A stretch of DNA of 26,003 bases from NCBI GenBank assembly GCA_938003525.1, contig CALKYM010000058.1, forward strand, positions 1 through 26,003. The letters are read 5' to 3'. Source of the stretch: an uncultured Planctomycetales bacterium. GTDB lineage: Bacteria; Planctomycetota; Planctomycetia; Pirellulales; JAEUIK01. This document shows, piece by piece, positions 1-20,438 of the stretch. A program made the position numbers and the translations under genes. Each line of letters opens with the position of its first letter. The first letter of the stretch is position 1. Under the pieces are notes generated by a model. It saw only the letters and a list, made by a program, of their open reading frames with translations, ran no database searches and was not told the origin of the DNA.

Positions 1-696
1 GCACGAATAATGCGATTAGCGCGGTCGCGTAGGATCTGATTCTGGTGTGCTAGCGATGAGCGGATCGCAGCGCGCCCGGCCAATCTAGCCACGTTCGCGT
101 TCGATCATGCCCGCGCTGGAATCATGTGTACTCGGCATGCTGCCCTAGCCCTTGCCGGTAGCCCCAGCGAATGAGTTCCACATCGCGGCCGAGCAATCAA
201 CTGACTGCCGGGAGGAGAGCTGGAGCGGCCGATTGGTCATTGCGATTAGCCATTTATCGAGTTTCGGTCGCCAGAGACGGGCGTACACAAAGTCAGTCAG
301 ACCCTCGTGGCGAGCTCCCGCGACTGCGGCGGAAATCGCCTGATGACGCCAAGTTGACGCGCGCCGCAGGAACAACGACTCCCTCTCTGTGTGCGGAATC
401 GCGCAACGTCCCGCACACCATCTGTGTGCTTCGCGGCACAAAGGACCCGACCAACCCGGTAATTGGTCCTTCGTGACTGTGGAATTGATATCTCGATTTC
501 GCGGCGCACCGTTTGCAGATTACCGCGACCGCCAGATGCTCATGCGAAGCATAGTTCTGGTTCGCGACGAGTTGAGAGGGGGCCACGGTTTCTGAGTAGC
601 TCATCGGCGTTTCTCCCCTACAAGGGAGCAGATGCGCCCGCATCGAGGCAAGAGCGAGCGGCTGCCGACAGGGCAGCCAAGACGGAGTGGGCAGCC

Positions 697-2592: not shown

Positions 2593-2610
2593 AGCGAAAG
2601 CGAGTGACTG

Positions 2611-3105
2611 ATGTCGACTGAACCGGGCGGCGACTTGCAAAGCAGCCAACGCTTCGCGCCACCCCAAGAGCGACGCGACTTCCTCGGGTTAGCCGCCATT
2701 TGGTCGGCAGTCGGAGCGTGCGCGTTTGCTTTGATCGGCGCGCTACGGCTGCCGATGCCGTCGGTGTTTCCAGAGTCCAATCCGAAAGTCAAGCTCGGCC
2801 CTCCGAGTCGGTTTCTTGACGCCGAAGTGACGGCCCTCCCGGAGCAGCGGCTGTGGGTGTATTCGACTTCGGAGGGGATGTACGCCATTTCGGCCGTGTG
2901 TACCCATCTGGGATGCATCGTTGCCAAAGAAGAAGACGGGTACTTCTGCCCCTGTCACGGCAGCCGATTCGACGCGATGGGCAACGTTGTGGCGGGCCCG
3001 GCTCCGCGCGGCTTGGTTTACCTCGAACTATCGATTTCACCCGACGGTCAGTTGGTCGTCGATCGACAAAAGGAAGTCGCCGCCGCCGTTCGCTTGAAAG
3101 CATAG
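2611..3105 (+). CDS. Rieske [2Fe-2S] iron-sulfur subunit of a cytochrome bc-type complex, with a Tat-type signal/TM anchor.
   Basis: Rieske box I CTHLGC and box II CPCHGS, 17 residues apart. N-terminal [25 protein letters not shown] is a twin-arginine motif followed by a hydrophobic helix. The gene starts 19 bp after the upstream gene. Confidence 0.85.
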
Positions 3106-3153
3106 ACGAACCCCATCGGTCAGCTACACGGCTAGTCGACGAGACGGACGAAC

Positions 3154-4707
3154 ATGAACCCCACTATGGCTCCCGAAACGCCTCCCGAGAAGAAGCCCAA
3201 GGCGTTGAGGCGGTTTCGCCGCAACTTGGCTGAGACGCCGCGGCTGTTTCGCGATTCGCTGGTCCGACACGGTCGGCCCACATCGGATCGCAGTGCGTCG
3301 CAGGCCATCTTCACCAACTTCTTCTTGCATATCATTCCGACCCGCATCGATCGCTACTCCCTGCGGATCCGAGCGACGCTGGGCTTGGGCGTGATCACAA
3401 CAGTGCTCTTCCTCCTGCTGACCGGAACGGGGATTGCACTGATGATCTACTACAAGCCCAGCACGGCGGAAGCCTACAACTCGATGAAGGACATTCACTA
3501 CGTCGTGCCAACAGGCCGCTTTATGCGAAACATCCACCGCTGGGCCGCCCACGGCATGGTGGCCTGCGTGTTTCTACATATGGCCCGCGCCTTTTACACC
3601 GGCGCCTACAAGGCCCCGCGCGAGTTCAATTGGGTTATCGGCATGGGGCTGTTCGTGTTGACCCTGTTCCTGAGTTTCACGGGTTACCTGCTGCCGTGGG
3701 ACCAGCTCGCGTTTTGGGCGGTCACCATCGGATCGGAAATCGCGCAATCACCGCGCGAGCTCACTGACGCCTTGGGCATCACGCAATGGTTCGATCCGGG
3801 CGGTGCGCAAAAACACATTTTGCTGGGCGCCAATCATGTGGGCGAAGAGGCCTTGATTCGGTTCTATGTCTTGCACGTGATCGTGCTCCCCTTGGCGACG
3901 ACCGTGCTCTTGGGCGTCCACTTCTGGCGGATTCGAAAAGACGGCGGTCTGACGCGACCTGCACGACCGGTAGTGCACGACCGCATTGTCGCCCAGCAAG
4001 CCCCCGCCAAGACCTATGGACTGATGGCGGTCGTGCGCGGGCGCACGCCGGCTGTGGATCGCGAGATGGCAACGACCGTGCCCGCTTGGCCCAACGCCAT
4101 CTTCGCCATTGCTGCGCTGAGCATGTTGACGATGGCGGTGATGCTGGCCCTGGGACTCGTGCTCGACGCGCCGCTAAAAGAAGAAGCCAACCCGGCCGTG
4201 CCTGAGAATCCTGCCAAGGCCCCCTGGTACTTCCTTGGTTTGCAGGAGCTCGTCAGTTACTCAGCGTTCATGGGTGGAATCGGCATTCCGGCCTTGGTCG
4301 TACTGGGCCTGATGCTGGTGCCGTATCTCGATCGCGAGCGGGAGAACATCGGCGTCTGGTTCGGCGGACGTCAGGGTAAATACGTGTGCCTGTTGTCGGC
4401 CGTGTTCACGGCAGCCGTGGTCGTGGGGATTCTCGCGTTCACCGTGACGCAAGGCTGGCTGCGCAATTGGTATCCCGATATCCCCCAGGTCGTGATCACG
4501 TTTGTGAACCCGGGGACGGTGATGCTGGTGATCTTCGCCCTCTGGTCGTTCGCGATCATGTCGGTCAGCAATTCAACGCGCATGGGTGCGTTGGCAGTCT
4601 TCACTTGTTTCCTGATCGCTTTCATCATCCTGACGTACTTTGCAATCGTGCATCGTGGCCCGAACTGGGATTTCTATTGGTCGCAGAGTCAGTGGCCCAG
4701 GCACTAG
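3154..4707 (+). CDS. Cytochrome b subunit of a bc-type complex. At 517 aa it is a long form with extra C-terminal helices.
   Basis: Helix-B haem-ligand region IHRWAAHGMVACVFLHMARAFYTGAY, which fits the Y.H..RG.Y..Y pattern. LLPWDQLAFWAVTIGSEIAQS segment. PEWY-type Qo motif present as APWYFLGLQE. Many hydrophobic helices through the C-terminus. Gene follows the Rieske gene after 48 bp. Confidence 0.85.
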   Translation: MNPTMAPETPPEKKPKALRRFRRNLAETPRLFRDSLVRHGRPTSDRSASQAIFTNFFLHIIPTRIDRYSLRIRATLGLGVITTVLFLLLTGTGIALMIYYKPSTAEAYNSMKDIHYVVPTGRFMRNIHRWAAHGMVACVFLHMARAFYTGAYKAPREFNWVIGMGLFVLTLFLSFTGYLLPWDQLAFWAVTIGSEIAQSPRELTDALGITQWFDPGGAQKHILLGANHVGEEALIRFYVLHVIVLPLATTVLLGVHFWRIRKDGGLTRPARPVVHDRIVAQQAPAKTYGLMAVVRGRTPAVDREMATTVPAWPNAIFAIAALSMLTMAVMLALGLVLDAPLKEEANPAVPENPAKAPWYFLGLQELVSYSAFMGGIGIPALVVLGLMLVPYLDRERENIGVWFGGRQGKYVCLLSAVFTAAVVVGILAFTVTQGWLRNWYPDIPQVVITFVNPGTVMLVIFALWSFAIMSVSNSTRMGALAVFTCFLIAFIILTYFAIVHRGPNWDFYWSQSQWPRH

Positions 4708-4719
4708 GAATATCGTGCG

Positions 4720-7515
4720 ATGGATGCTCCTCAAGTCACGCGTCTCAAGGTCATCTTGCTCGCCAGCAGTCTGGCGTGTTTGGTGCTCTTGGTAATCGCC
4801 GCCTCGGAAGAAAACCTGCTGGGCGAATGGCAGGGACACCAGCGGGCGTACGCGCGCGTGCTTGCACAGCAGGACAGCGAGGACGGAAGCGCTTCTGCGT
4901 TTAGCATCGAGCCGCGGCAGTTGTTTCTGGCGGATCTGAGCCGCGTCGATCGATGCGTGAGCTGCCATGTCGGCATCGACAATCCGTCGATGCAGAGCGA
5001 ACGCCTGCCACTGGCCAGCCATCCCGGCGACCTGCTCGAACATCATCCCATGGACAGGTTCGGATGTACGATCTGCCACGACGGGCAGGGGCGAGCGACG
5101 GTTGCCGCCGACGCCCACGGCGACTCGCCGCATTGGCCCGAACCGCTCTTGCGCGGCGACTTGGTCTACACGAGTTGCAGCCGGTGCCACTACGAGAATG
5201 ACCTCTACGGTGGCGAGTCGGACCTCTACGGCCAGAACAAGCCGCTCGACTACGTCCGCCAGGGGGAACTAGCCGCCCACGTCCCGGGCGCGGACAACAT
5301 CGCCCGCGGGAAAGCCTTGATGGTCAGCCGCGGCTGCCTGGGCTGTCACAAGTACCGGGCGCGGGGAGGTTCGTTGGGACCGGACATTACGCACGTTGGC
5401 GACAAGACCGTACACGACTTTGACTTCCGTCATGTACATGGTGACTACACGGTCCTCAACTGGCTGGTCACACACTTCAAATCGCCGACGGCCGTCGTAC
5501 CCAACACGGTGATGCCCGACATGGGGCTCTCGGATCAAGAAGCACACGATCTTGCCGAGTACATGATGAGCCTCAAGCGCAAGGAAGCGCCGGCTGAATA
5601 CACGCCGCTGCCGCGGCCGGTCGATGCGACACCCATACGCGGTGAAACGCTCTACACGATGTACTGCTCGGCGTGCCACGGCTCAGATGGCGTCGGCGCA
5701 CTGGTCCGCTCGGCGGAGGAAGCCAAAGCGCTCGACCGGCCGCGTGAGTTACTCACGCCGTCGCTGCGCAATATCGACACATTGGGAGTTTCCAGCGATG
5801 CGTATCTGCGGGCCATCGTTGATCGGGGCCGACCCGGCACCAGCATGCCGGCGTGGGGAGTGGATGGTGGACTGAGCAGCGACGACATCGACTTGGTTGT
5901 GGACTTCATTCGCCGCTGGGAGCCACAAGCTGCCGATCATTCCTACATCTCGGCGACGCGCGGCGATGCCCACTACGGCGGCGCTTTGTTCCGCGCCAAC
6001 TGCGCCGCCTGCCACGGTAGCGACGGGCGGGGTGGCGAAGTCGGGATATCGCTGCGCTCTTTGACGTTTCAGTCCATTGCCAGCGATGAGTTCATCGCTC
6101 AAACCATCCTCCGCGGACGGGCGAACACGGCCATGCCGTCTTGGGCTGAGTTCGACAACCGCGAGGTTAGCGATTTGCTCGCGTACATACGGCAATGGCA
6201 GCCTTTGCGATCCCAGCGGAGTGAAGTCCTCGCCAGCAATGTGCTGGCGTCGAACACCATGCCGCAAGATTCAGTGGCAACCGGGCTCAAGTTGTACCGC
6301 AGCCGCTGCGCCGTGTGCCATGGCGAAGATGGCGAAGGCAAGATCGGGCCGTCGCTCAACAATCAGTCGGTGTTACCAGTCGTCTCCGACGAGTTTCTGC
6401 ACGACACGGTCGTTTTGGGACGTCCCGGCACCGCGATGCCGGCATGGCGACAGCTCAGTTCCCTCGACGTTGTCGATCTGATCGCCTTGCTGCGGAGCTG
6501 GCAGATCAAGCCGGCGCGCGAATTGGATCCGGTTGCCGTGACCGGCGACCCGCAGTATGGAGCGTTGCTGTTCGAAGGCATGTGCGTCAGTTGCCATGGA
6601 CCGAATGCCGAGGGCTCCATCGGACCGCAGTTGTCCAACCCGGTCTTCCTGGCTTCGGTCAGCGACGAAACGCTGTTTGAGTGGATTGCACATGGCCGCA
6701 CAGGCACGCAGATGCGGCCGTTTTTGAAGGGTGAACAGGGAATCGTCGGACTCTCCTCTCCGCAAATCGTGGACATCATCACGTACATTCGGTCGCTACG
6801 TGGCCAACGCCCGATTCACGGGCAACAAATCGGGCTCGGCTTCGCCCCGCGAGGCGAAGTCCTCTATCGCCAGATGTGCGCAAGTTGCCACGGCCCAGAC
6901 GGTGCCGGCGCCACCGGTCCAGCCATACGCAACCCGGACTTCCTGGCGGCCGTATCCGACGGGTTCTTGCGGGCCACCATCGTGCTTGGCCGCGACGGGA
7001 CGGAGATGCGCTCGATGGGCCACGGTGGAGCGGGAATCGTCGAACTGCGTTCCGAACAGATCAACGATCTGGTCGCGTACCTGCGCAGCGCCGAGGACTC
7101 GCAGGACATTGCCCATCGGTTTGTGATCGGTGCGGATCCGAATCGAGGACACACGCTGTACGGCCAGTATTGCGCTGGTTGCCACGGGACCGAAGGTGTT
7201 GGCAATTTCGCACCCGAGTTGAACAACGCCGGCTTTCTTCGGGCCGCCACGGATGGTTACTTACAAGCGACGATTATTCGCGGGCGGCGCGGGACAGCGA
7301 TGCGCCCGTTTGGCGCCGGCCGCGCCGGCCTGGCAGAGCTGCCGCAGCGCGACATCAACGACATTGTCGCGTTCATTCGCCAATGGAGTCCCGATACGCG
7401 TCCGTTGCAGCGCACGGAACCGTTTCCCGAGGTGCCGCGCGAACTTGCCGAACTGCAGCCACCCCTGCGAGCCTCTGAAGGAGTGGTCGGCGCTTCGGGA
7501 AACGGCGCAGAGTAA
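4720..7515 (+). CDS. Membrane-anchored decahaem c-type cytochrome. An N-terminal TM helix precedes a tetrahaem block and six tandem class-I monohaem cytochrome c domains.
   Basis: Ten CxxCH motifs: CVSCH, CTICH, CSRCH, CLGCH, CSACH, CAACH, CAVCH, CVSCH, CASCH, CAGCH. N-terminal hydrophobic helix LKVILLASSLACLVLLVIAA. The last six motifs each sit in a repeat of about 100 aa, of the form G..L(F/Y)...C..CHG.DG ... (T/A)MP(A/S)W or TxMR, which gives a Met axial ligand. The repeat ends in a conserved (Y/F)(I/L)R(S/Q)(W/L) tail. Confidence 0.85.
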   Translation: MDAPQVTRLKVILLASSLACLVLLVIAASEENLLGEWQGHQRAYARVLAQQDSEDGSASAFSIEPRQLFLADLSRVDRCVSCHVGIDNPSMQSERLPLASHPGDLLEHHPMDRFGCTICHDGQGRATVAADAHGDSPHWPEPLLRGDLVYTSCSRCHYENDLYGGESDLYGQNKPLDYVRQGELAAHVPGADNIARGKALMVSRGCLGCHKYRARGGSLGPDITHVGDKTVHDFDFRHVHGDYTVLNWLVTHFKSPTAVVPNTVMPDMGLSDQEAHDLAEYMMSLKRKEAPAEYTPLPRPVDATPIRGETLYTMYCSACHGSDGVGALVRSAEEAKALDRPRELLTPSLRNIDTLGVSSDAYLRAIVDRGRPGTSMPAWGVDGGLSSDDIDLVVDFIRRWEPQAADHSYISATRGDAHYGGALFRANCAACHGSDGRGGEVGISLRSLTFQSIASDEFIAQTILRGRANTAMPSWAEFDNREVSDLLAYIRQWQPLRSQRSEVLASNVLASNTMPQDSVATGLKLYRSRCAVCHGEDGEGKIGPSLNNQSVLPVVSDEFLHDTVVLGRPGTAMPAWRQLSSLDVVDLIALLRSWQIKPARELDPVAVTGDPQYGALLFEGMCVSCHGPNAEGSIGPQLSNPVFLASVSDETLFEWIAHGRTGTQMRPFLKGEQGIVGLSSPQIVDIITYIRSLRGQRPIHGQQIGLGFAPRGEVLYRQMCASCHGPDGAGATGPAIRNPDFLAAVSDGFLRATIVLGRDGTEMRSMGHGGAGIVELRSEQINDLVAYLRSAEDSQDIAHRFVIGADPNRGHTLYGQYCAGCHGTEGVGNFAPELNNAGFLRAATDGYLQATIIRGRRGTAMRPFGAGRAGLAELPQRDINDIVAFIRQWSPDTRPLQRTEPFPEVPRELAELQPPLRASEGVVGASGNGAE

Positions 7516-7569
7516 GTGACCACACGTCCAGAGTAGGCGAGTCAAACAACTACGCGCCAGAACAATCAA

Positions 7570-7595
7570 CGGCGCAGCTCAAGGCGCCGCACTTT
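7570..7595 (+). terminator. GC hairpin with a short T-containing tail in the 150-bp gap between the cytochrome c gene and the molybdoenzyme gene. Candidate partial terminator, attenuator or processing site.
   Basis: CGGCGC-AGCTCAAG-GCGCCG is a perfect 6-bp stem with an 8-nt loop, followed by CACTTT. No long U tract, which is common in GC-rich genomes. Confidence 0.25.
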
Positions 7596-7665
7596 AGGAA
7601 AACGATAAGAAGCACACTTGATGCAGCGGTGAGCGAACACCGAACAGCCCTAAAGGATTCCAGTC

Positions 7666-10398
7666 ATGCCGAAGCAACGAGATCTCTCGCCGTTCGACCG
7701 CCGCGCATTCATGAAGATGGCGGCCACCACCGGGGCGGCTGTCAGCGCCACGTCGCTTTATCCAGAGGAGTTCGTCCAGTCTGCTGCCGCCGCATCGGCA
7801 ACGCCTGCGGCGGGGATCAAGCTCTTGCAGTCTGCTTGTCCTTACTGCGGCGTGGGCTGTGGCACCTTGATCAAAGTTGAAAACGGTCAGGTCGTGGGCA
7901 TGGTGCCCGACAAGAAGCACCCCACCAATCAGGGCATTCAGTGCATCAAAGGGCTCAACGCGCACGAACCCATCTATCGCGATCGACTGACAAAGGTGCT
8001 GGTGCGCAAGGACATGAGCGATCCCCTCCGCGGGCACGTCTCCGGCACCAAGGGCCGCTTCGACGACGACGTGTTTGACGAGGTGTCGTACGAGGAAGCC
8101 GAAGAGATCGTCGCCGAGCGGATTGCTGAGATCGTCCGCGAACGAGGCGGAAACTCGATCGGATTGAACGGCAGCGGTCAGCTAACGATGGAGGCCCAAT
8201 GGATCGAAAACGTCTTGATGAAAGGCGTGCTGGGCAGCAACTCGATCGAGGCCAACGCGCGGATGTGTATGACTTCAGCCGTGACGGGCTACTTTCACAG
8301 CTACGGTTCCGATGCACCGCCCACCAGCTACGAGGACATTGAACAGGCGGACTTCATCACGTTTTGGGGACACAATGCCCGCGAGGCGCATCCGATCCTG
8401 TTTTGGCGCGTGGCCGACCACAAGCAACAGACGGATATTCCCACGCTGGTTGCCGATCCGCGCCGCACGGGATCCGTAATTGGGCTGGAGAACATCAATC
8501 CCCGCAACAGCCTTCACATCCAAACGCTCAATGGCGACATCAGCTATCAAAACGCCATCGCGCACGTACTGTTGACCAAGTATCCCGACGCGATCATGCC
8601 GGAAGACTGGTTGAAGGACAACGTCAACGGATACCGCGAATACATCGATGGAGTGCTCGAACGCTACTCGCCCGAGCAGGTTGTCGAGCGACTTCAACTG
8701 CTCGACCGCGGACGCGTGACGGTGGAGACCATTGAACAGGTCGCGCAGTACTGGGCCGACGCCACGCGCAAGGGGCGACAGCGCGGAAGAGGCGGCGTGC
8801 TTTCCTTCTGGGGTATCGGCTACAACCAGATGCTGCACGGTCAACACAACACGATTAGCATCATCAACCTCCACTTGCTGACGGGCAATCTCGGGCGGCC
8901 CGGCTGCGGCAGCCATTCGCAAACCGGTCAGCCCAACGCCATGAGCGAGCGGCTCATGGGCGGGCTCACCGGACGTTTGCCGTTTAATCGTCCGCTGTCG
9001 GACGACAACTGGCGCGACCACATTGCCGACGAGTGGGGCATCTCCCGCGAGCGACTCAAGCAGACGTCGATCATGCCCAACCCGGGTATGGCGGTTGGCT
9101 TGATGGAACGCGCGCTGAAGGACGACCTGTTGGCCATGTTTTGGATGTACACGACGCATGTGCACATGCCGGATCTGGATACGCTGGTTCGACCGGCGCT
9201 GACCAAGATGTTTTGCGTCGTGCAGGAAATCTATCGTCACGCGCCGAACCTGTTGTACGGCGATGTGATCTTTCCAGCATCGACATGGGGCGAATGGTCA
9301 GGCGGTACGTACATTCAGAGCGAGCGCCGTGTCTACGTGTGCGACGGCACAAACCATCCGCCGGAGAATTGTCGTCCCGATATGGACATGGCGATCGACA
9401 AGACGAAGCTGCTGGCCAAGAAGCTGGGACTCGATGCCGACAAGATCATGCCGTTCGAGAAGAAGATTCGCTCGGGCAATGGCCTCATGGTGTACGATCC
9501 CGAGGAGGTGTTTCGCGCCATTGCGGTAGCCAGCAAAGGCAGCGACGCAGATATGTCGGGGATGATCGAGGTCGAGCAACGCGACGGCATCAGCGTCTAC
9601 GACCAACTCCGCGAATTGCGCGGCGTGCAGTGGCCCGCACCCACCTACGACATCGCACGAGCTGGTGGGACTCCGCGTCGGTACCTGGGCCAGGAAGGGT
9701 GGGCCGGCAAACCGTACGGTGCGTTTCGCCACCCGGATGGCAAGGCCCAGATGAAGCTGTGCGAACAATCGTACGACCGCATCCACGAGATCACCGACAA
9801 GTTGATGCAGTACGGTCATCGCGACCGACCCGGAGCGGGGCCCTACTTCGTCGACGACATTGCGCAGGCCAAAGCAGAAGGCCGCAAGAATCTTCTGGAA
9901 GAAGCCAGGGATGCTGCGCTCACCCCCGAGCTACCAGACCTGGAAGTCTATGCCGACGCAACGCTCGGCTTGGACGACCACAAACGCCAGGACGTCTATC
10001 CGTTCTGGCTGGGACTGGGAATCGTCTACGAGCACTTTCACACGGCCAAGACGATTCGCGGCGCGACAACCCGCAAGCTCGTTCCCGAGCAGTACGTCGA
10101 GATGAGTGTCGGCGACGCGCAGCGCTTCGGGCTTCGAGACGGCGACCCCGTTCGGCTGGTGACGCGGCGCGGGACGTATGAAGCGCGCGTCACGGTCGGC
10201 TTGCAAAGCGAGCTGCGACCCTCCCGGAGCGAGTTGCCCGAGGGCTACCTGTTCAGTCCTTGGAATCTCTCGGTGGCCGATAGTGCTGATCCGACCAAGA
10301 ACCGCTGGCTGGTGAACGCCGTCAGCCATCGGGCCTGGGACCCTGTGAGTGGCCAGGCAGATTTCAAGAAGCTGGCAGCGCGGATCGAAAGGATCTGA
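7666..10398 (+). CDS. Tat-exported bis-MGD molybdopterin oxidoreductase catalytic subunit in the Nap/Nas/Fdh clade. Probably a periplasmic NapA-like reductase, but the substrate is not determinable from sequence.
   Basis: Twin-arginine signal DRRAFMKMAATTGAAVSATS. N-terminal [4Fe-4S] motif CPYCGVGCG ... QCIKG, which is CX2CX3C plus a distal Cys. MopB-type core, 910 aa. C-terminal molybdopterin-binding-like segment VEMSVGDAQRFGLRDGDPVRLVTRRGTYEARV. SD-like AAAGGA lies 9 nt upstream of the ATG. Confidence 0.8.
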   Translation: MPKQRDLSPFDRRAFMKMAATTGAAVSATSLYPEEFVQSAAAASATPAAGIKLLQSACPYCGVGCGTLIKVENGQVVGMVPDKKHPTNQGIQCIKGLNAHEPIYRDRLTKVLVRKDMSDPLRGHVSGTKGRFDDDVFDEVSYEEAEEIVAERIAEIVRERGGNSIGLNGSGQLTMEAQWIENVLMKGVLGSNSIEANARMCMTSAVTGYFHSYGSDAPPTSYEDIEQADFITFWGHNAREAHPILFWRVADHKQQTDIPTLVADPRRTGSVIGLENINPRNSLHIQTLNGDISYQNAIAHVLLTKYPDAIMPEDWLKDNVNGYREYIDGVLERYSPEQVVERLQLLDRGRVTVETIEQVAQYWADATRKGRQRGRGGVLSFWGIGYNQMLHGQHNTISIINLHLLTGNLGRPGCGSHSQTGQPNAMSERLMGGLTGRLPFNRPLSDDNWRDHIADEWGISRERLKQTSIMPNPGMAVGLMERALKDDLLAMFWMYTTHVHMPDLDTLVRPALTKMFCVVQEIYRHAPNLLYGDVIFPASTWGEWSGGTYIQSERRVYVCDGTNHPPENCRPDMDMAIDKTKLLAKKLGLDADKIMPFEKKIRSGNGLMVYDPEEVFRAIAVASKGSDADMSGMIEVEQRDGISVYDQLRELRGVQWPAPTYDIARAGGTPRRYLGQEGWAGKPYGAFRHPDGKAQMKLCEQSYDRIHEITDKLMQYGHRDRPGAGPYFVDDIAQAKAEGRKNLLEEARDAALTPELPDLEVYADATLGLDDHKRQDVYPFWLGLGIVYEHFHTAKTIRGATTRKLVPEQYVEMSVGDAQRFGLRDGDPVRLVTRRGTYEARVTVGLQSELRPSRSELPEGYLFSPWNLSVADSADPTKNRWLVNAVSHRAWDPVSGQADFKKLAARIERI

Positions 10399-10399
10399 C

Positions 10400-11047
10400 A
10401 TGCCAGTCGATCGTCGCTCATTCTTGCGAAACGTAGCCGGTCTTGCCGCCGTGTCGACTGCCGCGGCCGGCACTTCGGGATTGTGGAGCGGAGGTGCGCA
10501 AGCAACAGACGCTCCTCTGCGGCCACCAGGAGCCCTTCCGGAGGATGAATTCCTCTCCACGTGTATCCGCTGTATGCGCTGCGTCGACTCGTGCCCGAAC
10601 CATTGTCTCGAGTCGACGCCTGTCACGGCAGGCGCCCAAATTGCGGGCACGCCGCAAATGCATCCGCGACGTCAGGCGTGCATGTTGTGCAGCCGGGCTG
10701 AGGGTGACTACTTACGGTGCACGGCCGCCTGTCCCACCGGAGCCCTGCGGCCCATCAAGAAAGACATTCTCCAGATTCGAGAGCACGTCCGCATTGGTGT
10801 GGCCGAGATCGATCTGAATCTGTGCTACTCGTACAACAACTATACGTGCGGCACCTGCTTTCATGCCTGCCCGCTGCAAGGCGAAGCCATCACGCTGGGC
10901 CTTTGGGAACGGCCGCAAGTGCATCCCGAGGCGTGCATCGGCTGTGGCCTTTGCGAGCGCGCCTGCATCCGTTACCCGCACGCGATTCGGGTCAAAGCGA
11001 CGGACAGACCGCACCAGCAGGAACCCGCATCGCCCTCTTCGTCATGA
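10400..11047 (+). CDS. Tat-exported NapG/MauM-like periplasmic polyferredoxin with four FeS cluster motifs. This is copy 1.
   Basis: The six-frame ORF opens at 10349. The internal ATG at 10400 sits 2 nt after the upstream TGA, with AAAGGA 6 nt upstream. RRSFLRNVAGLAAV is a Tat motif. Cys motifs CIRCMRCVDSCP, CMLCSRAEGDYLRCTAACP, CYSYNNYTCGTCFHACP and CIGCGLCERAC. Confidence 0.75.
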   Translation: MPVDRRSFLRNVAGLAAVSTAAAGTSGLWSGGAQATDAPLRPPGALPEDEFLSTCIRCMRCVDSCPNHCLESTPVTAGAQIAGTPQMHPRRQACMLCSRAEGDYLRCTAACPTGALRPIKKDILQIREHVRIGVAEIDLNLCYSYNNYTCGTCFHACPLQGEAITLGLWERPQVHPEACIGCGLCERACIRYPHAIRVKATDRPHQQEPASPSSS

Positions 11048-11676
11048 ATATCTCGCGGCGTACATGGTTGCAATTGTTTCGGCGCGGCGTTCGCGGCCTC
11101 GCGTTTGCTGGAGCCTGGATCGCGCTGGCCGTGGCGTTGCGCCGACCTGCGGCGCCGCGACATACGGCGCGACCACGTGTGGACGAACCACAGGAGTTCA
11201 CCTTTCGGCCACCCGGCGCATTGCCGGAATCCGACTTTCTGGCTCGCTGTATCCATTGTTATCTGTGTCAGGACGTCTGTCCGCCCGGGTGCATCTTGAT
11301 GAAGCCCGACACCGAGCCGGACCGCCATACTCCGTACATCACGCCTCGCCTCAAGGCCTGCACGCTGTGTCTGAAGTGCTGCGACGTCTGCCCCACCGGC
11401 GCGCTCACGCGGCTATCGAACAAGCGTGACGTGCAGATGGGCCTCGCTGCGGTGGACGAGACGATCTGCGTTTCGCATCTGCGGACCGGCGCCTGCGGAG
11501 CCTGCTTCACTGCGTGTCCCTTGAGGGGCGATGCGATCACGCAGGGATTGTACAACGCACCGTACGTCAACCCCGAGCATTGCACGGGTTGTGGACTGTG
11601 CGAAGAGGTGTGCATCGTCCCCTATCGAGCCATCCGCGTGTATCCAACGGAACACGTGTCGGAGGGTGTGGCATGA
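11044..11676 (+). CDS. Tat-exported NapG/MauM-like periplasmic polyferredoxin, copy 2.
   Basis: The ATG at 11044 overlaps the upstream stop (ATGA). The product begins MNISRRTWLQLFRRGVRGLAFAGAWIALAVA, a Tat motif plus a hydrophobic region. Cys motifs CIHCYLCQDVCPPGC, CTLCLKCCDVCPTGA, CVSHLRTGACGACFTACP and CTGCGLCEEVC. The listed ORF 10717..11676 is the same frame with a spurious upstream extension. Confidence 0.75.
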   Translation: MNISRRTWLQLFRRGVRGLAFAGAWIALAVALRRPAAPRHTARPRVDEPQEFTFRPPGALPESDFLARCIHCYLCQDVCPPGCILMKPDTEPDRHTPYITPRLKACTLCLKCCDVCPTGALTRLSNKRDVQMGLAAVDETICVSHLRTGACGACFTACPLRGDAITQGLYNAPYVNPEHCTGCGLCEEVCIVPYRAIRVYPTEHVSEGVA

Positions 11677-13322
11677 TAGGCCGCCTGATCCCGCCGATTC
11701 GCCGCACGGTGCAAGTGCTAAGCCTGCTGTTGGTCGGGCTGTTGCCGGTTCTCGCACTGTACACCCATCATCATGAAGCCCACGCGATCGACGACCTTCC
11801 GACCGACGACTGGCGCACGGCGGCGATTCGCACGGTCGATCGCGTCGTGGGCGATGATGAAGGCCGCGAGCATTTGGCCAAAAGCACGCAGGGAACTATC
11901 TGGTCGCTGCGACTCGCGGGATACAGCGTGTCAGATCCGTTGGCGGGTGCTGAGGCGATCGTCACGAGCCGCAGCTTTTACCAACCGCTGATGTGGTCGG
12001 TGCTGCTGCCGATTGTCGCCAGCCTGTTGCTGGGCCGTGTGTTCTGTGGGTGGATCTGCCCGGTCAACACGCTGTTGGAAGTCGTCGACCGTGGCCGTCG
12101 CCTGTTGCGGATTGCCGAAATTCGCCCCAGGGACGTCAGGTTCTCGCTGTGGAACAAGTACCTCGTGCTTGCGCTTGGACTGCTGATCGCTGGCGTCACT
12201 TCCGTGCCGTTCTTGGCTCTGTTCTATCCGCCCGCCGTGCTCAGTCGCGAAACGCATCTGTTCGTTTTCGGGGCGACGTTGGGATTGGGGCTGTACTTCT
12301 TGCTCGCCATTGTCCTGTTTGAACTCTTCGTCAGCCGGCGTTGGTGGTGCCGCTATATGTGCCCAGGCGGCGCGCTGTATTCGCTCTTCGGTCACTTGCG
12401 GGTTGTCCGAGTACGGCGCGACGACGACAAGTGCGTCAAGTGTGGCGAATGCGTCCGTGTCTGCCAGTTCGACCTGCGACCCATGTTGCACCACACTACA
12501 GGCTCTGAGTGCACCAACTGTGCGGCGTGCATCTCGGTTTGCGATTCCGATGCCTTGCACTACAGGTTGACGGCACCGCTCCCCATTCTTCACCCTGATC
12601 GCGCGGCCGTTTCTACAAGAGCCCCTGAGTCCGCCGCGCCGGAGGCGGAGCCGACGGAGGACGATCGACGTTCATCTGCGACATCCAAGGTGCTGCATAG
12701 CGGGCTGGGCCTGCTGCTGGCTTGCTTCATCACGAACCAAGCCCACGCGCACCATATTCTCGGACTGCCACACTACTCCTACAAAGACAACTACCCTCAA
12801 GCGCCGACCCTCGAGTATCCCGCCACGACGGGACCTTACCAGGTGCTGATGACCTGTTATCCAGGCACGCCGGTGCCGGGCGAAGCGTCGACCGTGGCCT
12901 TCTATATCAAGCATATTCAGGGCGACACGCCGTACGCTCAACCGGTAACCATGCGCGTGCTGCAGACCTTCACATTCGGTTCGAGCCGCGAAATCGTCGC
13001 TCCATCGCAGCGCGAGCCCTTCGACAATCAACACCGCTACACGGTCACGTTTCCGCAAGACGGCGAATACATTGTCGAGTTGACCATGGATGTCGAGGGC
13101 CGGCCGGAAGTGATTCCGTTCCTGGTGGTGTGCGGCAATCCTACAGCGACCAAGTCGATAGTCGTCTTCCTGGGCGGAGGGCTGGCCGTGTTCCTGGTTT
13201 CTGTGCGCGCGATCAAGAAAAAGCGTGAGCGCCGCGCCACAAAAGCGCGGTCACGCGGCAAGCTGACAAACGAGACAACTTCTTCCGCCGAACAAGATAC
13301 AGCCTCGCCGCTGGCTCACTGA
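11673..13322 (+). CDS. NapH/MauN-like integral-membrane iron-sulfur protein with two CX3CP motifs and two [4Fe-4S] motifs, plus a C-terminal extension of about 230 aa ending in an extra TM helix.
   Basis: The ATG at 11673 overlaps the upstream stop (ATGA), with GGAGGG 7 nt upstream. TM helices are present. GWICPVNTL and WWCRYMCPGGALYS are CX3CP motifs. CVKCGECVRVCQFD and CTNCAACISVCDSD are ferredoxin motifs. The C-terminal region (HHILGLPHYSYKDNYP ... VVCGNPTATKSIVVFLGGGLAVFLVSVRAIKKKRERR) has a soluble domain flanked by hydrophobic helices. Confidence 0.7.
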   Translation: MIGRLIPPIRRTVQVLSLLLVGLLPVLALYTHHHEAHAIDDLPTDDWRTAAIRTVDRVVGDDEGREHLAKSTQGTIWSLRLAGYSVSDPLAGAEAIVTSRSFYQPLMWSVLLPIVASLLLGRVFCGWICPVNTLLEVVDRGRRLLRIAEIRPRDVRFSLWNKYLVLALGLLIAGVTSVPFLALFYPPAVLSRETHLFVFGATLGLGLYFLLAIVLFELFVSRRWWCRYMCPGGALYSLFGHLRVVRVRRDDDKCVKCGECVRVCQFDLRPMLHHTTGSECTNCAACISVCDSDALHYRLTAPLPILHPDRAAVSTRAPESAAPEAEPTEDDRRSSATSKVLHSGLGLLLACFITNQAHAHHILGLPHYSYKDNYPQAPTLEYPATTGPYQVLMTCYPGTPVPGEASTVAFYIKHIQGDTPYAQPVTMRVLQTFTFGSSREIVAPSQREPFDNQHRYTVTFPQDGEYIVELTMDVEGRPEVIPFLVVCGNPTATKSIVVFLGGGLAVFLVSVRAIKKKRERRATKARSRGKLTNETTSSAEQDTASPLAH

Positions 13323-13446
13323 AGCCGGGCAAACGAAACAACGCGAAACGCAAGCCCGCACTGGTGACAGCTCGCCCCGTTCAGATCTGACAGACGCGAC
13401 ATTCGCAACAACAGCCTAAGACCGACGCCCTACTGAGAACCGACCG

Positions 13447-15447
13447 ATGCGGGCCCTTGTCAAGATATTCTTGCCGTATTCTGTATTGTTGGCTGTCGCC
13501 GTCGCGGTGTACGTGTCGACATTCCGCGCCCCTTCGCAGGCGAGTTCTGCTCCCGAGCGCGGCGAGGAATCGACGCCGCTCGATCCGGTGTGCCACATGG
13601 AAGTCAACCCGAGTTGGCAACATCAGGCGACGCACGAGGGCGAAGTCTACTGGTTCTGCACCAGTCGTTGTCGCGACCGCTTCGTCGCTTCCCCCGACTC
13701 ATTTCTCGGCGAGCGCTGCGTCGTGTGCAACGACTTGGTGGAAGCCGATGCGTCGTTGCCGGCGACCTATTTGGGCAAAACCTACCACCTCTGTTCTCAA
13801 GAGCATCGCCGCGAGTTCAAAGCCGACCCGGCGGCGTTCTTCATGCACACCATGTGGGGCATCCCTCCCTGGTTGTACTACGGATCGATTGCCGGTGTGC
13901 TCGTCGTCAGCTTCGGTGTTTTCGAGCGACGGGATCGAAAGACTTCATCGGGAACCCTTTCGGTCTCACCGTCGGGCGAGCTGACTCTGGACGATAAACC
14001 TAACACGTCGTTTGTACGCAGCGCTGCGGAACGAATCGATCTGCTACGCAGTCCACTGCTTCGCGCGGTCTTCACATCGCGGCGGCTGCGCTTTTGCGCG
14101 CAGGCCACGATGGTTCTGCTCTTCTTTCTGATCATTGCCGCCGGGCTGTTTGGCAATCAGAACCCGGCATTGAACATCGCGCCCATTCTGACATGGACCG
14201 TCTGGTGGGGCGGCCTGGTTGTGTTGATCATGTACGCCGGCAAGGCCTGGTGTTACATGTGCCCCTGGGACGCCGTTGCCGGCTGGATGGCGAAACTTAG
14301 ACTTTGGACCAAGACCGATGAGCGGCTCGGGCTTGATCTCAAGTGGCCGCCCGCCGTTCGCAACATCCTCGTCGCCACGTTGCTCTTCGTCGGTCTGACC
14401 TGGTTCGAACTTGGCTTCGGCGTGACGATGCGCCCGCGTGTGACTGCCTATCTGGCGATCGCGATGTTGCTGATGGCCATCGTCTCCGCGTTTTTGTTCG
14501 AGCGCCAGAGTTTCTGCAGATACGGCTGTCTGGTGGGCCGCGTGAGCGGCCTGTATGCCATGTTCTCCGGCGTTGAGGTCCGCGCCCGCGACGAAGCGGT
14601 TTGTCGCACGTGCGAGGGAAAAGAGTGTGTGCGCGGTAGTGAAAACGCCTATGGCTGTCCGACGTTTCTTTATCCGGGCAAGCTCAAAACCAACACCTAC
14701 TGTATTCAATGTACCGAGTGCATTCAGGCCTGCCCGGAGGACAATCTGACGATCAATATGCGTCCCTGGGGGGCCGACTTGGCCGCCGAACATCGGCCGC
14801 GGCAGGACGAGGCCTATCTGGCTCTGCTGATGCTGGCAATCACGGGCTTTCACGGGCTGACCATGACGCCCAACTGGGCGCTGCTCACCGGCTGGATGAG
14901 CGAAGTCTTTTCACTGGGACGCGTGATTGCCTTTACGCTCGGAATGACCTTGCTGCTCTTGGCGCCGATCGCCGTCTACGCCGTGTTGATTGGAGTGTCT
15001 CACCGCTTGGCGTTGGGCACTCGACACATCGAGAGGCGCGACCTCACCTACGGCGACTACTTCATTCGCTACGCGTACGCTTTGCTGCCCATCGCGCTCT
15101 TCTACCATCTCGCACACAATCTCGAACACCTGCTGCTGGAAGGGCCGAAGGTTGTGGCGCTTTTTTCCGATCCGTTCGGCTGGGGCTGGAATCTGTTCGG
15201 CACGAGCGATTGGGTGGTGCCGCCACTCGTCTCGCTCGAGGCACTGTGGATCGTACAAGTGCTGCTCGTGCTGGTGGGCCACGTCTACAGCCTGTGGGCG
15301 GCCCAACGCACGAGCGTCAACATCTTTGGCAGCCACAAGGTCGCGTTCCGCAGCCAACTCCCGATGCTCGTCGGCATGATTGCCTTCAGCGTGTTCAGCC
15401 TCTGGCTGCTCAAACAGCCCATGGAAATGCGGACCAGCGCCATGTGA
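13447..15447 (+). CDS. Membrane polyferredoxin of the CcoG/FixG/NapH family with two N-terminal YHS/TRASH metal-binding domains. Putative metal (cupric) reductase.
   Basis: N-terminal signal/TM MRALVKIFLPYSVLLAVAVAVYV. YHS-type motifs DPVCHMEV...YWFCTSRCRDRF and CVVCNDLV...YHLCSQEHRREF. Multiple TM helices. WCYMCPWD and FCRYGCLVG cysteine motifs. C-terminal ferredoxin motif CIQCTECIQACPEDN, plus CRTCEGKECV. Gene follows the NapH-like gene after 124 bp on the same strand. Confidence 0.7.
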   Translation: MRALVKIFLPYSVLLAVAVAVYVSTFRAPSQASSAPERGEESTPLDPVCHMEVNPSWQHQATHEGEVYWFCTSRCRDRFVASPDSFLGERCVVCNDLVEADASLPATYLGKTYHLCSQEHRREFKADPAAFFMHTMWGIPPWLYYGSIAGVLVVSFGVFERRDRKTSSGTLSVSPSGELTLDDKPNTSFVRSAAERIDLLRSPLLRAVFTSRRLRFCAQATMVLLFFLIIAAGLFGNQNPALNIAPILTWTVWWGGLVVLIMYAGKAWCYMCPWDAVAGWMAKLRLWTKTDERLGLDLKWPPAVRNILVATLLFVGLTWFELGFGVTMRPRVTAYLAIAMLLMAIVSAFLFERQSFCRYGCLVGRVSGLYAMFSGVEVRARDEAVCRTCEGKECVRGSENAYGCPTFLYPGKLKTNTYCIQCTECIQACPEDNLTINMRPWGADLAAEHRPRQDEAYLALLMLAITGFHGLTMTPNWALLTGWMSEVFSLGRVIAFTLGMTLLLLAPIAVYAVLIGVSHRLALGTRHIERRDLTYGDYFIRYAYALLPIALFYHLAHNLEHLLLEGPKVVALFSDPFGWGWNLFGTSDWVVPPLVSLEALWIVQVLLVLVGHVYSLWAAQRTSVNIFGSHKVAFRSQLPMLVGMIAFSVFSLWLLKQPMEMRTSAM

Positions 15448-17455: not shown

Positions 17456-17493
17456 GTTCGGGGCAGCTCGGTCGCCAGAGCCGCAAACTTGCA

Positions 17494-20073: not shown

Positions 20074-20438
20074 CACATCGCTCCTGTTTGCTGCAAAGAC
20101 ATAGCCCGTGAGCCAAGATTGTAACACGACGAACGCGAGCCCTATTTGGCTGAGCGGATTCCTAACGGCTTCACGATTGATCTTCACCCAAGCCGGACAC
20201 GGCGCACCGCTCCGCGCTCTGCGACTCCGTTTTCCGGGCCCGATGTCGCTTTCGCCAGAGCGCACGCGACGCTCGAATCTCAGCAGACTAACTGTCCGAA
20301 GATTGTCGACTCCGGGCTGCCAGCTTCGTGTGGGGCGATAGGCTGACCGCGTCTTGAAGCAGTTCGCTCGGTCGATCGTGCGGGAGCGCGACTAGCGTCG
20401 CCGTGATGGGCTGCCTAATCTGGAGAGGAGTAGCCTAT

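What the first reader, a model, noticed from the sequence alone, without database searches (positions are those of the whole stretch)
7666..10398. Tat-exported molybdoenzyme carrying an assimilatory-type (CPYCGVGCG) FeS motif, i.e. a periplasmic Nas-like reductase
The CPYCGVGCG motif is the form I associate with cytoplasmic assimilatory nitrate reductases (NasA/NarB). NapA proteins usually read CR(F/Y)CGTGCG. This protein nevertheless has a clear twin-arginine leader (DRRAFMK) and sits beside NapG and NapH genes. That suggests a periplasmic enzyme of a less common lineage, and its substrate (nitrate, or another oxyanion such as chlorate or selenate) is open. No NapB or NapD gene is evident in the window.
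Basis: partly seen in the sequence, partly recalled or inferred. Interest (0 to 1): 0.6.

Follow-up and report, generated by a model that had tools for sequence, protein, structure and literature searches.

The report
Third lineage of periplasmic nitrate-reductase-like enzyme
The gene encodes an exported molybdenum enzyme from a widespread, uncurated sister lineage of the two known soluble bacterial nitrate reductases. Here it sits in a conserved gene cluster with a respiratory Rieske/cytochrome b complex and an NAD(P)H-binding flavoprotein, so it is probably a nitrate-reducing respiratory module that nobody has studied.

Summary
ORF 7666-10398 (+) encodes a 910-aa bis-MGD molybdoenzyme with a twin-arginine leader (DRRAFMK, residues 11-17) and the cluster motif CPYCGVGCG (residues 58-66).

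- The protein is neither a canonical NapA nor a Nas. It scores far below every curated cut-off.
- In a bootstrap NJ tree it forms its own clade (100%), outside Nap (99%) and Nas (99%).
- It is about equidistant from Nap and Nas by clade HMMs.
- The CPYCG motif is not Nas-specific. FdhF and other Tat-bearing relatives also carry it.

The lineage is not rare. At least 80 species-level genomes under some 18 taxonomic labels carry proteins 56-92% identical with an invariant signature.

The active-site motifs are of nitrate-reductase type (Cys-Met, Arg). The partners are NapG-, NapH-, NapC- and NapF-like proteins, and a class-I multihaem cytochrome stands where NapB would be.

In the window and many relatives the cluster also encodes a Rieske/cytochrome b6-type complex and an NfnB-like NAD(P) flavoprotein. 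Anammox Rieske/cytochrome b complexes have the same make-up.

Nitrate is the best-supported substrate but is untested. I rate this a new variant of a known kind, of moderate interest.

The parts
7666..10398 (+). Catalytic subunit: a Tat-exported bis-MGD molybdoenzyme of a distinct Nap/Nas-related clade (910 aa). Key residues are FeS Cys58/61/65/93, Lys95, the Mo-ligand candidate Cys201-Met202 and Arg429. A clade-specific insertion lies at about residues 708-776.
7696..7716 (+). Twin-arginine motif DRRAFMK
   Evidence: RR is invariant in homologues.
7837..7863 (+). CPYCGVGCG, the first three Cys of the [4Fe-4S] cluster
   Evidence: The motif is constant in all related loci that hold it, except that the last residue is A or H in three of them.
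697..2592 (+). NfnB/GltD-like NAD(P)-binding FAD protein with FeS clusters and no signal peptide or TM segment. The mechanical ORF starts at TTG 463, but ATG 697 matches the homologues' lengths of 610-635 aa.
2611..3105 (+). Rieske [2Fe-2S] protein with an RRDFL motif, one TM segment and the cluster ligands C97-x-H99 and C113-x-C115-H116
3154..4707 (+). Cytochrome b of b6 type with a region resembling subunit IV (ExtQ-like) fused to it (8 predicted TM). The four haem-ligand His are H128/H142 and H241/H256. A further His, H59, is also invariant.
4720..7515 (+). Membrane-anchored decahaem cytochrome c. It has 3 clustered CxxCH motifs followed by 7 tandem class-I domains. The proposed role is electron donor to the Mo enzyme, in place of NapB.
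10400..11047 (+). NapG-like poly-ferredoxin 1 with a Tat motif (DRRSFL)
11044..11676 (+). NapG-like poly-ferredoxin 2 (SRRTWL). Its start overlaps the preceding stop codon (ATGA).
11673..12752 (+). NapH-like membrane FeS protein with two CX3CP motifs and two 4Fe-4S motifs
12753..13322 (+). Conserved domain with no Pfam match, fused to the NapH-like protein. It is an Ig-like sandwich followed by a TM anchor, and it begins HHILGLPHYSYK after an internal AHA cleavage-like site. In other genomes it is a separate Sec-exported protein.
13447..15447 (+). Polytopic membrane protein with a YHS domain and a weak NapH/CcoG-like FeS region

Best explanation
The ORF encodes the catalytic subunit of a periplasmic, respiratory, nitrate-reductase-type molybdoenzyme. 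It belongs to a third lineage beside Nap and Nas.

Shown:
- It has a Tat leader.
- It has the Cx2Cx3C...C [4Fe-4S] motif with the conserved Lys.
- It has Cys-Met at the Mo-ligand position and the conserved active-site Arg.
- Its closest solved sequence and its closest solved fold are both NapA.
- It forms a separate, well-supported clade.
- It keeps a conserved gene order across many phyla.

Inferred:
- It reduces nitrate to nitrite in the periplasm.
- Electrons reach it through a class-I multihaem cytochrome c. This is a decahaem here and a dihaem in the simplest clusters, and it takes the place of NapB.
- That cytochrome is fed from quinol in two ways. One is the co-encoded Rieske/cytochrome b6-type complex, which would make the pathway electrogenic. 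The other is the NapGH-like quinol dehydrogenases.

More speculative: the cytoplasmic NfnB-like flavoprotein docks on cytochrome b. Quinol oxidation would then be split, as proposed for anammox Rieske/cytochrome b complexes. One electron would go downhill to nitrate (+420 mV) and the other uphill to NAD(P)+. Alternatively, NAD(P)H could feed electrons in by the reverse route.
For: Catalytic subunit:
- Domains and motifs are as listed above.
- The family signature ANAR[MT]CMTSA, WGIGYNQ and TGQPNAM[SG]ERL keeps the Cys-Met and Arg of Nap and Nas, not the Cys/Sec-His of Fdh. It is constant in more than 75 loci at 56-92% identity.
- The best solved sequence is D. desulfuricans NapA (236 bits). 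The best fold matches are 2jio and 2nap (TM 0.82 on the target), then other NapA, then Fdh.
- The protein forms its own clade (bootstrap 100), outside Nap and Nas (99 each).

Partners:
- NapG- and NapH-like proteins are present in the window.
- NapC/NirT and NapF-like genes lie inside proteobacterial versions of the cluster.
- A cytochrome c built of class-I domains lies directly upstream of the Mo gene in most clusters, and just downstream in L056. It has 2, 4, 6, 8 or 10 haems.

Links to nitrogen metabolism:
- A canonical napFAGHB operon lies back-to-back with the cluster in L084.
- HAO-family octahaem cytochromes lie beside the cluster in 4 loci.
- The 49%-identical sister enzyme comes from Microaerobacter geothermalis. 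That organism was described as a nitrate reducer (my own knowledge).
- JGI pipelines name fragments of the family 'nitrate reductase NapA'.

Rieske/cytochrome b module:
- It is conserved together with the Mo gene in Planctomycetota, Deferrisoma, Wallbacteria, Verrucomicrobiota, Omnitrophota, Zixibacteria and others.
- The b6-type His ligands and the Rieske ligands are intact.
- The flavoprotein resembles NfnB-type modules.

Precedents:
- C. jejuni Nap is fed by Qcr (PMC6195509).
- The Caldithrix nap cluster contains Rieske and cytochrome b genes (PMC5317091).
- Anammox Rieske/cytochrome b complexes carry an NAD(P) oxidoreductase (bioRxiv 10.1101/2025.06.25.661457).
Against: - No member of the clade has been assayed.
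- The enzyme fails every curated nitrate-reductase model.
- Residues near the active site differ from both Nap and Nas. These are Thr after Cys-Met, Ile in place of Dd-NapA Met308, and Leu/Phe rather than Glu/Asp after the Arg. A different oxyanion is therefore possible.
- L084 already has a canonical Nap next door, which argues against simple redundancy.
- Deferrisoma camini, the one cultured host in the core clade, is known as an Fe(III) reducer. I could not verify whether it uses nitrate.
- The conserved His-His domain and the YHS protein are unexplained by a plain Nap model.
- The Rieske/cytochrome b module is absent from several members, so it is an add-on and not essential.
- My tree is NJ only, and the deep nodes are unresolved (bootstrap about 23).
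- The structure model has only moderate confidence (pLDDT 72.8). It is low at the loops that carry the FeS, Mo-ligand Cys and active-site Arg motifs.
Confidence: 0.6

Rival explanations
1. The enzyme is a periplasmic reductase for another oxyanion, with the nitrate-reductase scaffold re-tuned. Candidates are chlorate, perchlorate, selenate, iodate and similar.
For: - The clade-specific changes around the active site are invariant across phyla.
- The cluster coexists with a canonical Nap in L084.
- C. jejuni NapA itself turns over chlorate and perchlorate (PMC12769810).
- A paper on selenate reduction cites the species description of Deferrisoma palaeochoriense. I did not see in what context.
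Against: - The Cys-Met and Arg of nitrate reductases are retained.
- All partners are of Nap type.
- HAO-type cytochromes and a nap operon are neighbours in some loci.
- No chlorite dismutase or comparable gene was noticed among the annotated neighbours in the flanks inspected. I made no targeted search.
Confidence: 0.15
2. It is simply a divergent canonical NapA. NapB and NapD are encoded elsewhere, and nothing is distinctive.
For: - KO-based pipelines call it NapA.
- The best structural and sequence matches are NapA.
- A study of metagenome-assembled genomes (MAGs), which supplied several of the related loci, reports napAB as prevalent in its Phycisphaerae MAGs.
Against: - It scores a third of the NapA cut-offs.
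- The Nap clade excludes it (bootstrap 99).
- It has its own invariant signature and an insertion of about 60 aa.
- A different type of cytochrome partner is conserved across the whole clade.
- No NapB or NapD gene was seen in the window or in the annotated related clusters.
Confidence: 0.1
3. The enzyme works oxidatively. It oxidises nitrite or another high-potential donor and passes electrons through the decahaem cytochrome into a reversed Rieske/cytochrome b complex that makes NAD(P)H.
For: - The cluster includes an NAD(P)-linked flavoprotein, a device proposed for uphill NAD(P)+ reduction in anammox bacteria.
- Members occur in MAGs of groups that include lithotrophs: Gallionellaceae, Nitrospinota and Thiotrichaceae.
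Against: - No Nap/Nas-type enzyme is known to work as a nitrite oxidase.
- The MAGs from those lithotroph-containing groups that have enough upstream DNA lack the Rieske/cytochrome b module.
- Many of the hosts belong to groups I take to be mainly heterotrophs (Phycisphaerae, Verrucomicrobiota; my own knowledge).
Confidence: 0.06
4. It is a periplasmic formate dehydrogenase.
For: The NCBIfam Fdh-alpha model scores 290 bits, close to the NapA score.
Against: - Met, not His, follows the ligand Cys.
- The Fdh-type 'RGQNNVQG' segment is replaced by TGQPNAM.
- The Fdh clade HMM gives the lowest score, 349 bits.
Confidence: 0.02

Closest known systems
Periplasmic nitrate reductase NapA, especially the small monomeric type of Desulfovibrio desulfuricans (PDB 2NAP/2JIO) and NapAGH-type systems
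   Same: - It is exported by Tat.
- It has the same four-domain MopB fold (TM 0.82 on the target).
- It has the [4Fe-4S] motif with the Lys.
- It has Cys-Met and Arg at the active site.
- Its neighbours are NapG-, NapH-, NapC- and NapF-like proteins.
   Different: - Identity is only about 27%, and it lies outside the Nap clade.
- It reads CPYCGVGCG where Nap reads CR[FY]CG[TV]GC.
- It reads CMTSA, WGIGYNQ and SERL where Nap reads CMASA, W(T/C)MG.NQ and (A/V)RE.
- It has an extra segment of about 60 aa (708-776).
- Its partner is a class-I di- to decahaem cytochrome rather than NapB.
- No NapD gene was seen.
- It has additional conserved genes: the His-His domain and the YHS/NapH-like membrane protein.
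Assimilatory nitrate reductases NasA/NasC/NarB
   Same: - The FeS motif CPYCGVGCG is identical.
- It shares TGQPNAM and Cys-Met.
- It is about as close by HMM score as it is to Nap.
   Different: - It has a Tat leader and a respiratory gene context.
- No nirBD or nitrate-transporter genes lie nearby.
- It lies outside the Nas clade.
- It lacks the Nas C-terminal extensions.
Anammox Rieske/cytochrome b complexes Kuste4569-4574 and Kustd1480-1485
   Same: The gene set matches: a Rieske protein, a b6-like cytochrome b with subunit IV, a multihaem cytochrome c in place of cytochrome f or c1, and a cytoplasmic NAD(P) oxidoreductase. In both cases a high-potential nitrogen-oxide reductase is encoded alongside.
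   Different: - The terminal enzyme here is a molybdoenzyme, not an HAO-like octahaem protein.
- The hosts are not anammox bacteria.
- I did not test orthology to the Kuenenia proteins.
Nap systems coupled to a Rieske/cytochrome b complex: the Caldithrix abyssi nap cluster and Campylobacter jejuni Qcr-Nap
   Same: Periplasmic nitrate reduction is fed by a Rieske/cytochrome b complex. In Caldithrix the genes lie in a single cluster together with napGH and an HAO-type enzyme.
   Different: - Judging from what was read of the two papers, those systems use NapA enzymes named as canonical and NapM or NapB cytochromes, and no NAD(P) flavoprotein is mentioned.
- I did not check whether the Caldithrix NapA belongs to the present clade.

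Membership tests
NapA (canonical periplasmic nitrate reductase catalytic subunit; TIGR01706 / PRK13532) | Twin-arginine signal peptide | tested here: met
   DRRAFMK is at residues 11-17. RR is conserved in homologues.
NapA (canonical periplasmic nitrate reductase catalytic subunit; TIGR01706 / PRK13532) | N-terminal [4Fe-4S] motif, Mo-ligand Cys followed by Met, and the conserved active-site Arg | tested here: met
   C58, C61, C65, C93, K95, C201-M202 and R429 are invariant. C201-M202 and R429 align to Dd NapA Cys140-Met141 and Arg354.
NapA (canonical periplasmic nitrate reductase catalytic subunit; TIGR01706 / PRK13532) | Score above the curated equivalog cut-off | tested here: not met
   It scores 306.7 bits against 904 and 287.8 against 930.55, and the match is split into 3 stretches.
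NapA (canonical periplasmic nitrate reductase catalytic subunit; TIGR01706 / PRK13532) | Phylogenetic placement inside the Nap clade | tested here: not met
   The NJ tree has 119 sequences and 671 columns. The Nap clade (bootstrap 99) excludes the protein, and its own clade has bootstrap 100. No ML tree could be run.
NapA (canonical periplasmic nitrate reductase catalytic subunit; TIGR01706 / PRK13532) | NapB dihaem partner and/or NapD chaperone encoded with it | tested here: not met
   The window has no NapB or NapD domain. The partner is a class-I cytochrome c. The rest of the genome is not available.
NapA (canonical periplasmic nitrate reductase catalytic subunit; TIGR01706 / PRK13532) | Nitrate to nitrite activity | not testable with these tools
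   This needs an enzyme assay.
Assimilatory nitrate reductase (NasA/NasC/NarB) | Cytoplasmic, with no signal peptide | tested here: not met
   A Tat leader is present and conserved. All 64 Nas-clade sequences in my set lack a plausible one. One has an RR match of doubtful significance.
Assimilatory nitrate reductase (NasA/NasC/NarB) | Curated model cut-off and placement in the Nas clade | tested here: not met
   It scores 257.7 bits against 1000 (NasA) and 203.2 against 1100 (NasC). The Nas clade (bootstrap 99) excludes it.
Assimilatory nitrate reductase (NasA/NasC/NarB) | CPYCGVGCG-type cluster motif | tested here: met
   The motif is present, but it is shared with Fdh and with exported relatives, so it is not diagnostic.
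Formate dehydrogenase (Fdh-alpha) | Sec/Cys-His at the metal ligand position | tested here: not met
   The protein has Cys-Met.
NapGH quinol dehydrogenase | NapH has TM helices, two CX3CP motifs and two 4Fe-4S motifs. NapG is a Tat-exported poly-ferredoxin. | tested here: inconclusive
   The motifs are present: CGWICP, CRYMCP and two FeS motifs in the NapH-like protein, and DRRSFL in NapG-like 1. Scores are below the cut-offs, however: NapH 140 against 213 and NapG 135 against 269.
Anammox-type Rieske/cytochrome b complex with NAD(P) oxidoreductase | The gene set of Rieske protein, b6-type cytochrome b with subunit IV, multihaem cytochrome c and NAD(P)-binding FeS flavoprotein | tested here: met
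   All four genes are present, and they are conserved together in many loci.
Anammox-type Rieske/cytochrome b complex with NAD(P) oxidoreductase | Orthology to Kuste4569-74 or Kustd1480-85, physical complex formation, and NAD(P)+ reduction | not tested

The most novel reading that the evidence does not exclude
The cluster encodes a single supercomplex in non-anammox bacteria. A Rieske/cytochrome b complex would split the two electrons of quinol between nitrate (through the decahaem cytochrome and the new molybdoenzyme) and NAD(P)+ (through an NfnB-like flavoprotein). That would be a quinol-based electron-bifurcating NAD(P)H generator driven by nitrate respiration. The conserved His-His domain and YHS protein would add a metal-dependent (copper?) step not known in any Nap system.
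Probability: 0.15. Interest if true: 0.85.

Novelty: new variant of a known kind. Interest (0 to 1): 0.55.

Why it matters
1. Surveys of the nitrogen cycle count genes by name. This clade is named inconsistently, as NapA, ferredoxin-nitrate reductase, assimilatory nitrate reductase, selenocysteine-containing dehydrogenase, or a generic molybdopterin oxidoreductase. It occurs under many phylum-level labels, so nitrate-reduction potential may be both over- and under-called.

2. The proposal that some Rieske/cytochrome b complexes make NAD(P)H by bifurcating quinol electrons has so far rested on anammox bacteria, which are hard to grow. The same gene set, linked to a nitrate-reductase-like enzyme, occurs in Deferrisoma camini, which is cultured. 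That would make the idea testable.

3. As an exported enzyme with Nas-type motifs, the clade bears on how the periplasmic and assimilatory nitrate reductases diverged from formate dehydrogenases.

Tried and rejected
- **Miscalled start or cytoplasmic Nas.** Rejected, because the leader is conserved.
- **Formate dehydrogenase.** Rejected on the Cys-Met motif and the HMM scores.
- **Literature.** Seven full-text searches found no description of the clade or the cluster. Lacipirellula, Thermogutta and Limisphaera use other nitrate reductases. The Bacillus azotoformans Nap has NapB and NapD and looks different.
- **Cultured proteobacterial host.** I looked for one through a third homologue search and a cluster look-up.
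- **Deferrisoma camini species description.** It is not held in the library, so its nitrate phenotype is unverified.
- **Promoter and terminator scan.** Nothing exceeded chance.
- **Fold search of the His-His domain.** It returned only generic Ig-like matches. Two copper proteins appear at weak E-values, which is a hint and not a finding.
- **Count of relatives.** The 587 relatives in the genome scan include Nas-type proteins that match the same patterns. I therefore use only the capped top 80 as a count for the family.
- **Representative search.** It lists few full-length close representatives of the family and adds little on the family's size.
Full report
**1. The observation**

ORF 7666-10398 (+) is real. 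It runs from an ATG to a TGA and encodes 910 aa. It carries DRRAFMK at residues 11-17 and CPYCGVGCG at residues 58-66. It has the three Pfam domains of a bis-MGD molybdoenzyme.

The leader is not an artefact of a wrong start. RR is invariant in an alignment of 51 homologues. An RR motif precedes the FeS motif in every related locus that holds the N-terminus, apart from one Myxococcales sequence (L055).

Two NapG-like and two NapH-like genes follow with gaps of 1 to -4 nt, except for a 124-nt gap before the last gene. No NapB or NapD domain occurs in the window. The window has about 61% G+C and carries a DUF1501 gene. Its closest relative, at 92% identity, is a contig of an uncultured Planctomycetaceae MAG.

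**2. Placement of the protein**

It fails every curated model:

| NCBIfam model | Score (bits) | Cut-off (bits) |
|---|---|---|
| NapA (PRK13532) | 307 | 904 |
| NapA (TIGR01706) | 288 | 931 |
| Fdh-alpha | 290 | 666 |
| NasA | 258 | 1000 |

The best solved sequence is the monomeric NapA of D. desulfuricans, at about 27% identity. An AlphaFold model (pLDDT 72.8) superposes best on the same enzyme, then on other NapA, then on Fdh. I could not compare it with any solved Nas structure, since none appeared among the matches.

For a tree I combined three sets of sequences:
- representatives from an exhaustive HMMER search;
- members of the family;
- named NapA, Nas and FdhF sequences taken from annotated plasmids.

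In an NJ tree of 119 sequences with 100 bootstraps, the window protein groups with its close relatives. Three more distant Tat-bearing proteins join them: P0121 (52% identity), P0122 (49%) and P0125 (40%). This clade has bootstrap 100. The Nap clade (99) and the Nas clade (99) both exclude it, and the order of the three is unresolved (about 23).

HMMs built from each clade score the protein as follows:

| Clade HMM | Score (bits) |
|---|---|
| All Nap | 450 |
| Small Nap | 425 |
| Nas | 425 |
| NapAB-type | 362 |
| Fdh | 349 |

It is therefore a third lineage, about equally far from Nap and Nas.

**3. The motif argument**

Nap-clade members read CR[FY]CG[TVC]GC, and most Nas read CPYCGVGCG. 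But FdhF reads CPYCGAGC, and several exported relatives read CPYCG.GC. The motif is therefore probably the older form, and the Nap motif the derived one. It says nothing about cellular location.

More informative is the family's own signature, which hardly varies in more than 75 loci at 56-92% identity:
- Tat RR;
- CPYCGVGC[GHA];
- ANAR[MT]CMTSA[VA]T;
- WGIGYNQ;
- TGQPNAM[SG]ERL[MT]G.

This signature keeps the Cys-Met and the Arg (Dd NapA Cys140-Met141 and Arg354) that distinguish nitrate reductases from formate dehydrogenases. It differs from both Nap and Nas at neighbouring positions. A clade-specific insertion lies at residues 708-776.

**4. Distribution and naming**

All 120 best hits to the window protein are 72-92% identical. 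They come from Planctomycetota, Deferrisoma camini, Wallbacteria and others.

A scan of species-representative genomes returned the capped 80 loci at 56-92% identity. They carry about 18 taxonomic labels, nearly all from MAGs. A proteobacterial member again has 120 hits at 81% identity or more.

Names given by the sources are inconsistent. One MAG study supplied several of these loci. It reports napAB as prevalent in its Phycisphaerae MAGs and lists Rieske/cytochrome b genes separately. I found no paper that describes the clade or the cluster.

**5. Gene context**

The window's nine genes (697-15447) are kept in order in Deferrisoma and Wallbacteria, in a Planctomycete assembly and in many other loci.

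The invariant core consists of:
- a class-I cytochrome c;
- the Mo enzyme;
- a NapG-like protein;
- a NapH-like protein;
- a domain with no Pfam match that begins HHILG;
- a polytopic NapH/CcoG-like membrane protein, which carries a YHS domain in the window and at least some relatives;
- often a NapF-like ferredoxin, and in Proteobacteria a NapC/NirT cytochrome.

The cytochrome has 2, 4, 6, 8 or 10 haems. All of these are built from the same repeat. In the window it is a membrane-anchored decahaem.

The module of Rieske protein, cytochrome b and NfnB-like flavoprotein occurs in every locus of 73% identity or more that has enough upstream DNA. It also occurs in many more distant loci. It is absent from Elusimicrobiota, Gallionellaceae, gammaproteobacterial and Bdellovibrionota loci.

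Its cofactor ligands are intact. Cytochrome b has the b6-type His spacing plus a further invariant His, H59. The Rieske protein has the CxH...CxCH ligands. The flavoprotein has multiple Cys clusters. The flavoprotein's nearest solved relatives are NfnB-type modules.

**6. Function**

Five lines of evidence favour nitrate:
- the active-site motifs;
- the Nap-type partners;
- a canonical napFAGHB operon back-to-back with the cluster in a Thiotrichaceae MAG;
- HAO-family octahaem cytochromes beside the cluster in four loci, as in Caldithrix, where such an enzyme is proposed to reduce nitrite;
- a sister enzyme in Microaerobacter geothermalis.

None of this is an assay. The invariant differences near the active site leave another oxyanion possible, and so does coexistence with a canonical Nap.

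The electron path I propose runs from quinol to the multihaem cytochrome and on to the Mo enzyme, through either the Rieske/cytochrome b complex or NapGH. It is inferred from gene content and from two precedents: C. jejuni Qcr-Nap (PMC6195509) and the Caldithrix cluster (PMC5317091).

The role of the flavoprotein is inferred by analogy with anammox Rieske/cytochrome b complexes. For those, a split of quinol electrons between a high-potential acceptor and NAD(P)+ has been proposed but not yet shown.

**7. Verdict**

'Nas-like' is too narrow and 'less common' is wrong. The upstream Rieske/cytochrome b and NAD(P) module is the more interesting part. I rate it a new variant of a known kind, interest about 0.55.

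The main limits are:
- the NJ-only phylogeny;
- the moderate confidence of the structure model;
- the lack of any Kuenenia sequences for a direct comparison;
- the absence of experimental data for any member.

Noticed in passing
window 12753-13322 (C-terminal part of ORF 11673-13322); also L089 14425-15054, L084 13688-14269, L096 14874-15479: This is a conserved domain with no Pfam match. It is fused to the NapH-like protein here and is a separate Sec-exported protein of about 200 aa elsewhere, and it is found in 67 related loci. After the signal or anchor the sequence always starts HHILG(L/V/I)PHY(S/A)YK, which resembles an N-terminal histidine metal site. The AF2 model (pLDDT 88) is an Ig-like sandwich plus a TM helix. 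Weak fold matches include the copper proteins PmoD and CrdA.
   Followed up: partly
window 13447-15447: This is a 666-aa polytopic membrane protein with an N-terminal YHS domain, a second similar Cys/His-rich stretch, and a weak NapH/CcoG-like FeS region. It is conserved across the family. In at least the two proteobacterial clusters I read in full (L084, L096) the counterpart is about 510 aa, and in L096 it has no Pfam hit. Its role is unknown. CcoG, from the same superfamily, is a cupric reductase (my own knowledge).
   Followed up: partly
L084 123-6614 (-) and 7008-16555 (+): In a Thiotrichaceae MAG a canonical nap operon lies back-to-back with the family's cluster. The operon is napF, napA (CRFCGTGC), napG, napH and napB. 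The two systems are therefore probably not redundant.
   Followed up: partly
L001 721-2364 (-); L047 8656-9939; L081 20929-22682; L082 16439-18195: HAO-family octahaem cytochromes (Pfam PF13447) lie beside or inside the cluster in four loci. In L081 the octahaem cytochrome is preceded by a NapC/NirT tetrahaem partner, and in L082 by a similar small tetrahaem ORF. They are possible nitrite or hydroxylamine reductases.
   Followed up: partly
window 4720-7515 and the homologous cytochromes in L085, L089, L063, L048, L069: The cytochrome c partner occurs with 2, 4, 6, 8 or 10 haems, built by tandem expansion of one class-I domain. The window's version adds an N-terminal TM anchor and a trihaem c7-like segment.
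   Followed up: yes
window 3154-4707, residue His59 (about nt 3328-3330): A fifth invariant His lies N-terminal to the first TM helix of cytochrome b, in addition to the four haem b ligands. An extra b-type haem has been proposed from models of the anammox complexes. I did not test whether the two correspond.
   Followed up: no
L001 17719-21156 (-); L096 17984-20338: DsbD-type and Thioredox_DsbH proteins lie next to the cluster in two unrelated hosts (Deferrisoma and a closed 4.7-Mb contig). This suggests a need for periplasmic thiol reduction.
   Followed up: no
window 463-2592: The mechanical ORF starts at TTG 463 (709 aa). Homologues are 610-635 aa, and the only in-frame Met in the first 140 residues of the ORF, M79 at ATG 697, gives 631 aa. 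The first 78 codons are probably not translated.
   Followed up: yes
window 7569-7592, in the 150-nt gap before the Mo gene: A GC-rich inverted repeat (GCGGCGCC...GGCGCCGC-like) lies in the longest intergenic gap of the cluster. The scan lists it only on the minus strand, and the scan as a whole found no more than chance.
   Followed up: no
window 16049-20265: A DUF1501 gene (+) lies beside a 923-aa gene with a CarboxypepD_reg domain (-). DUF1501 genes are typical of Planctomycetota (my own knowledge), which fits the 92% match to a Planctomycetaceae MAG.
   Followed up: no
L094 2139-3107; L012 3656-7092; L001 21323-22429: Molybdenum-cofactor genes flank the cluster in several hosts. MoaA is in L094, MoeA, MobB, MoaE and a MobA-like gene are in L012, and a fused MobA/MobB gene is in L001. 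In M. geothermalis, TatA and TatC lie alongside as well.
   Followed up: no
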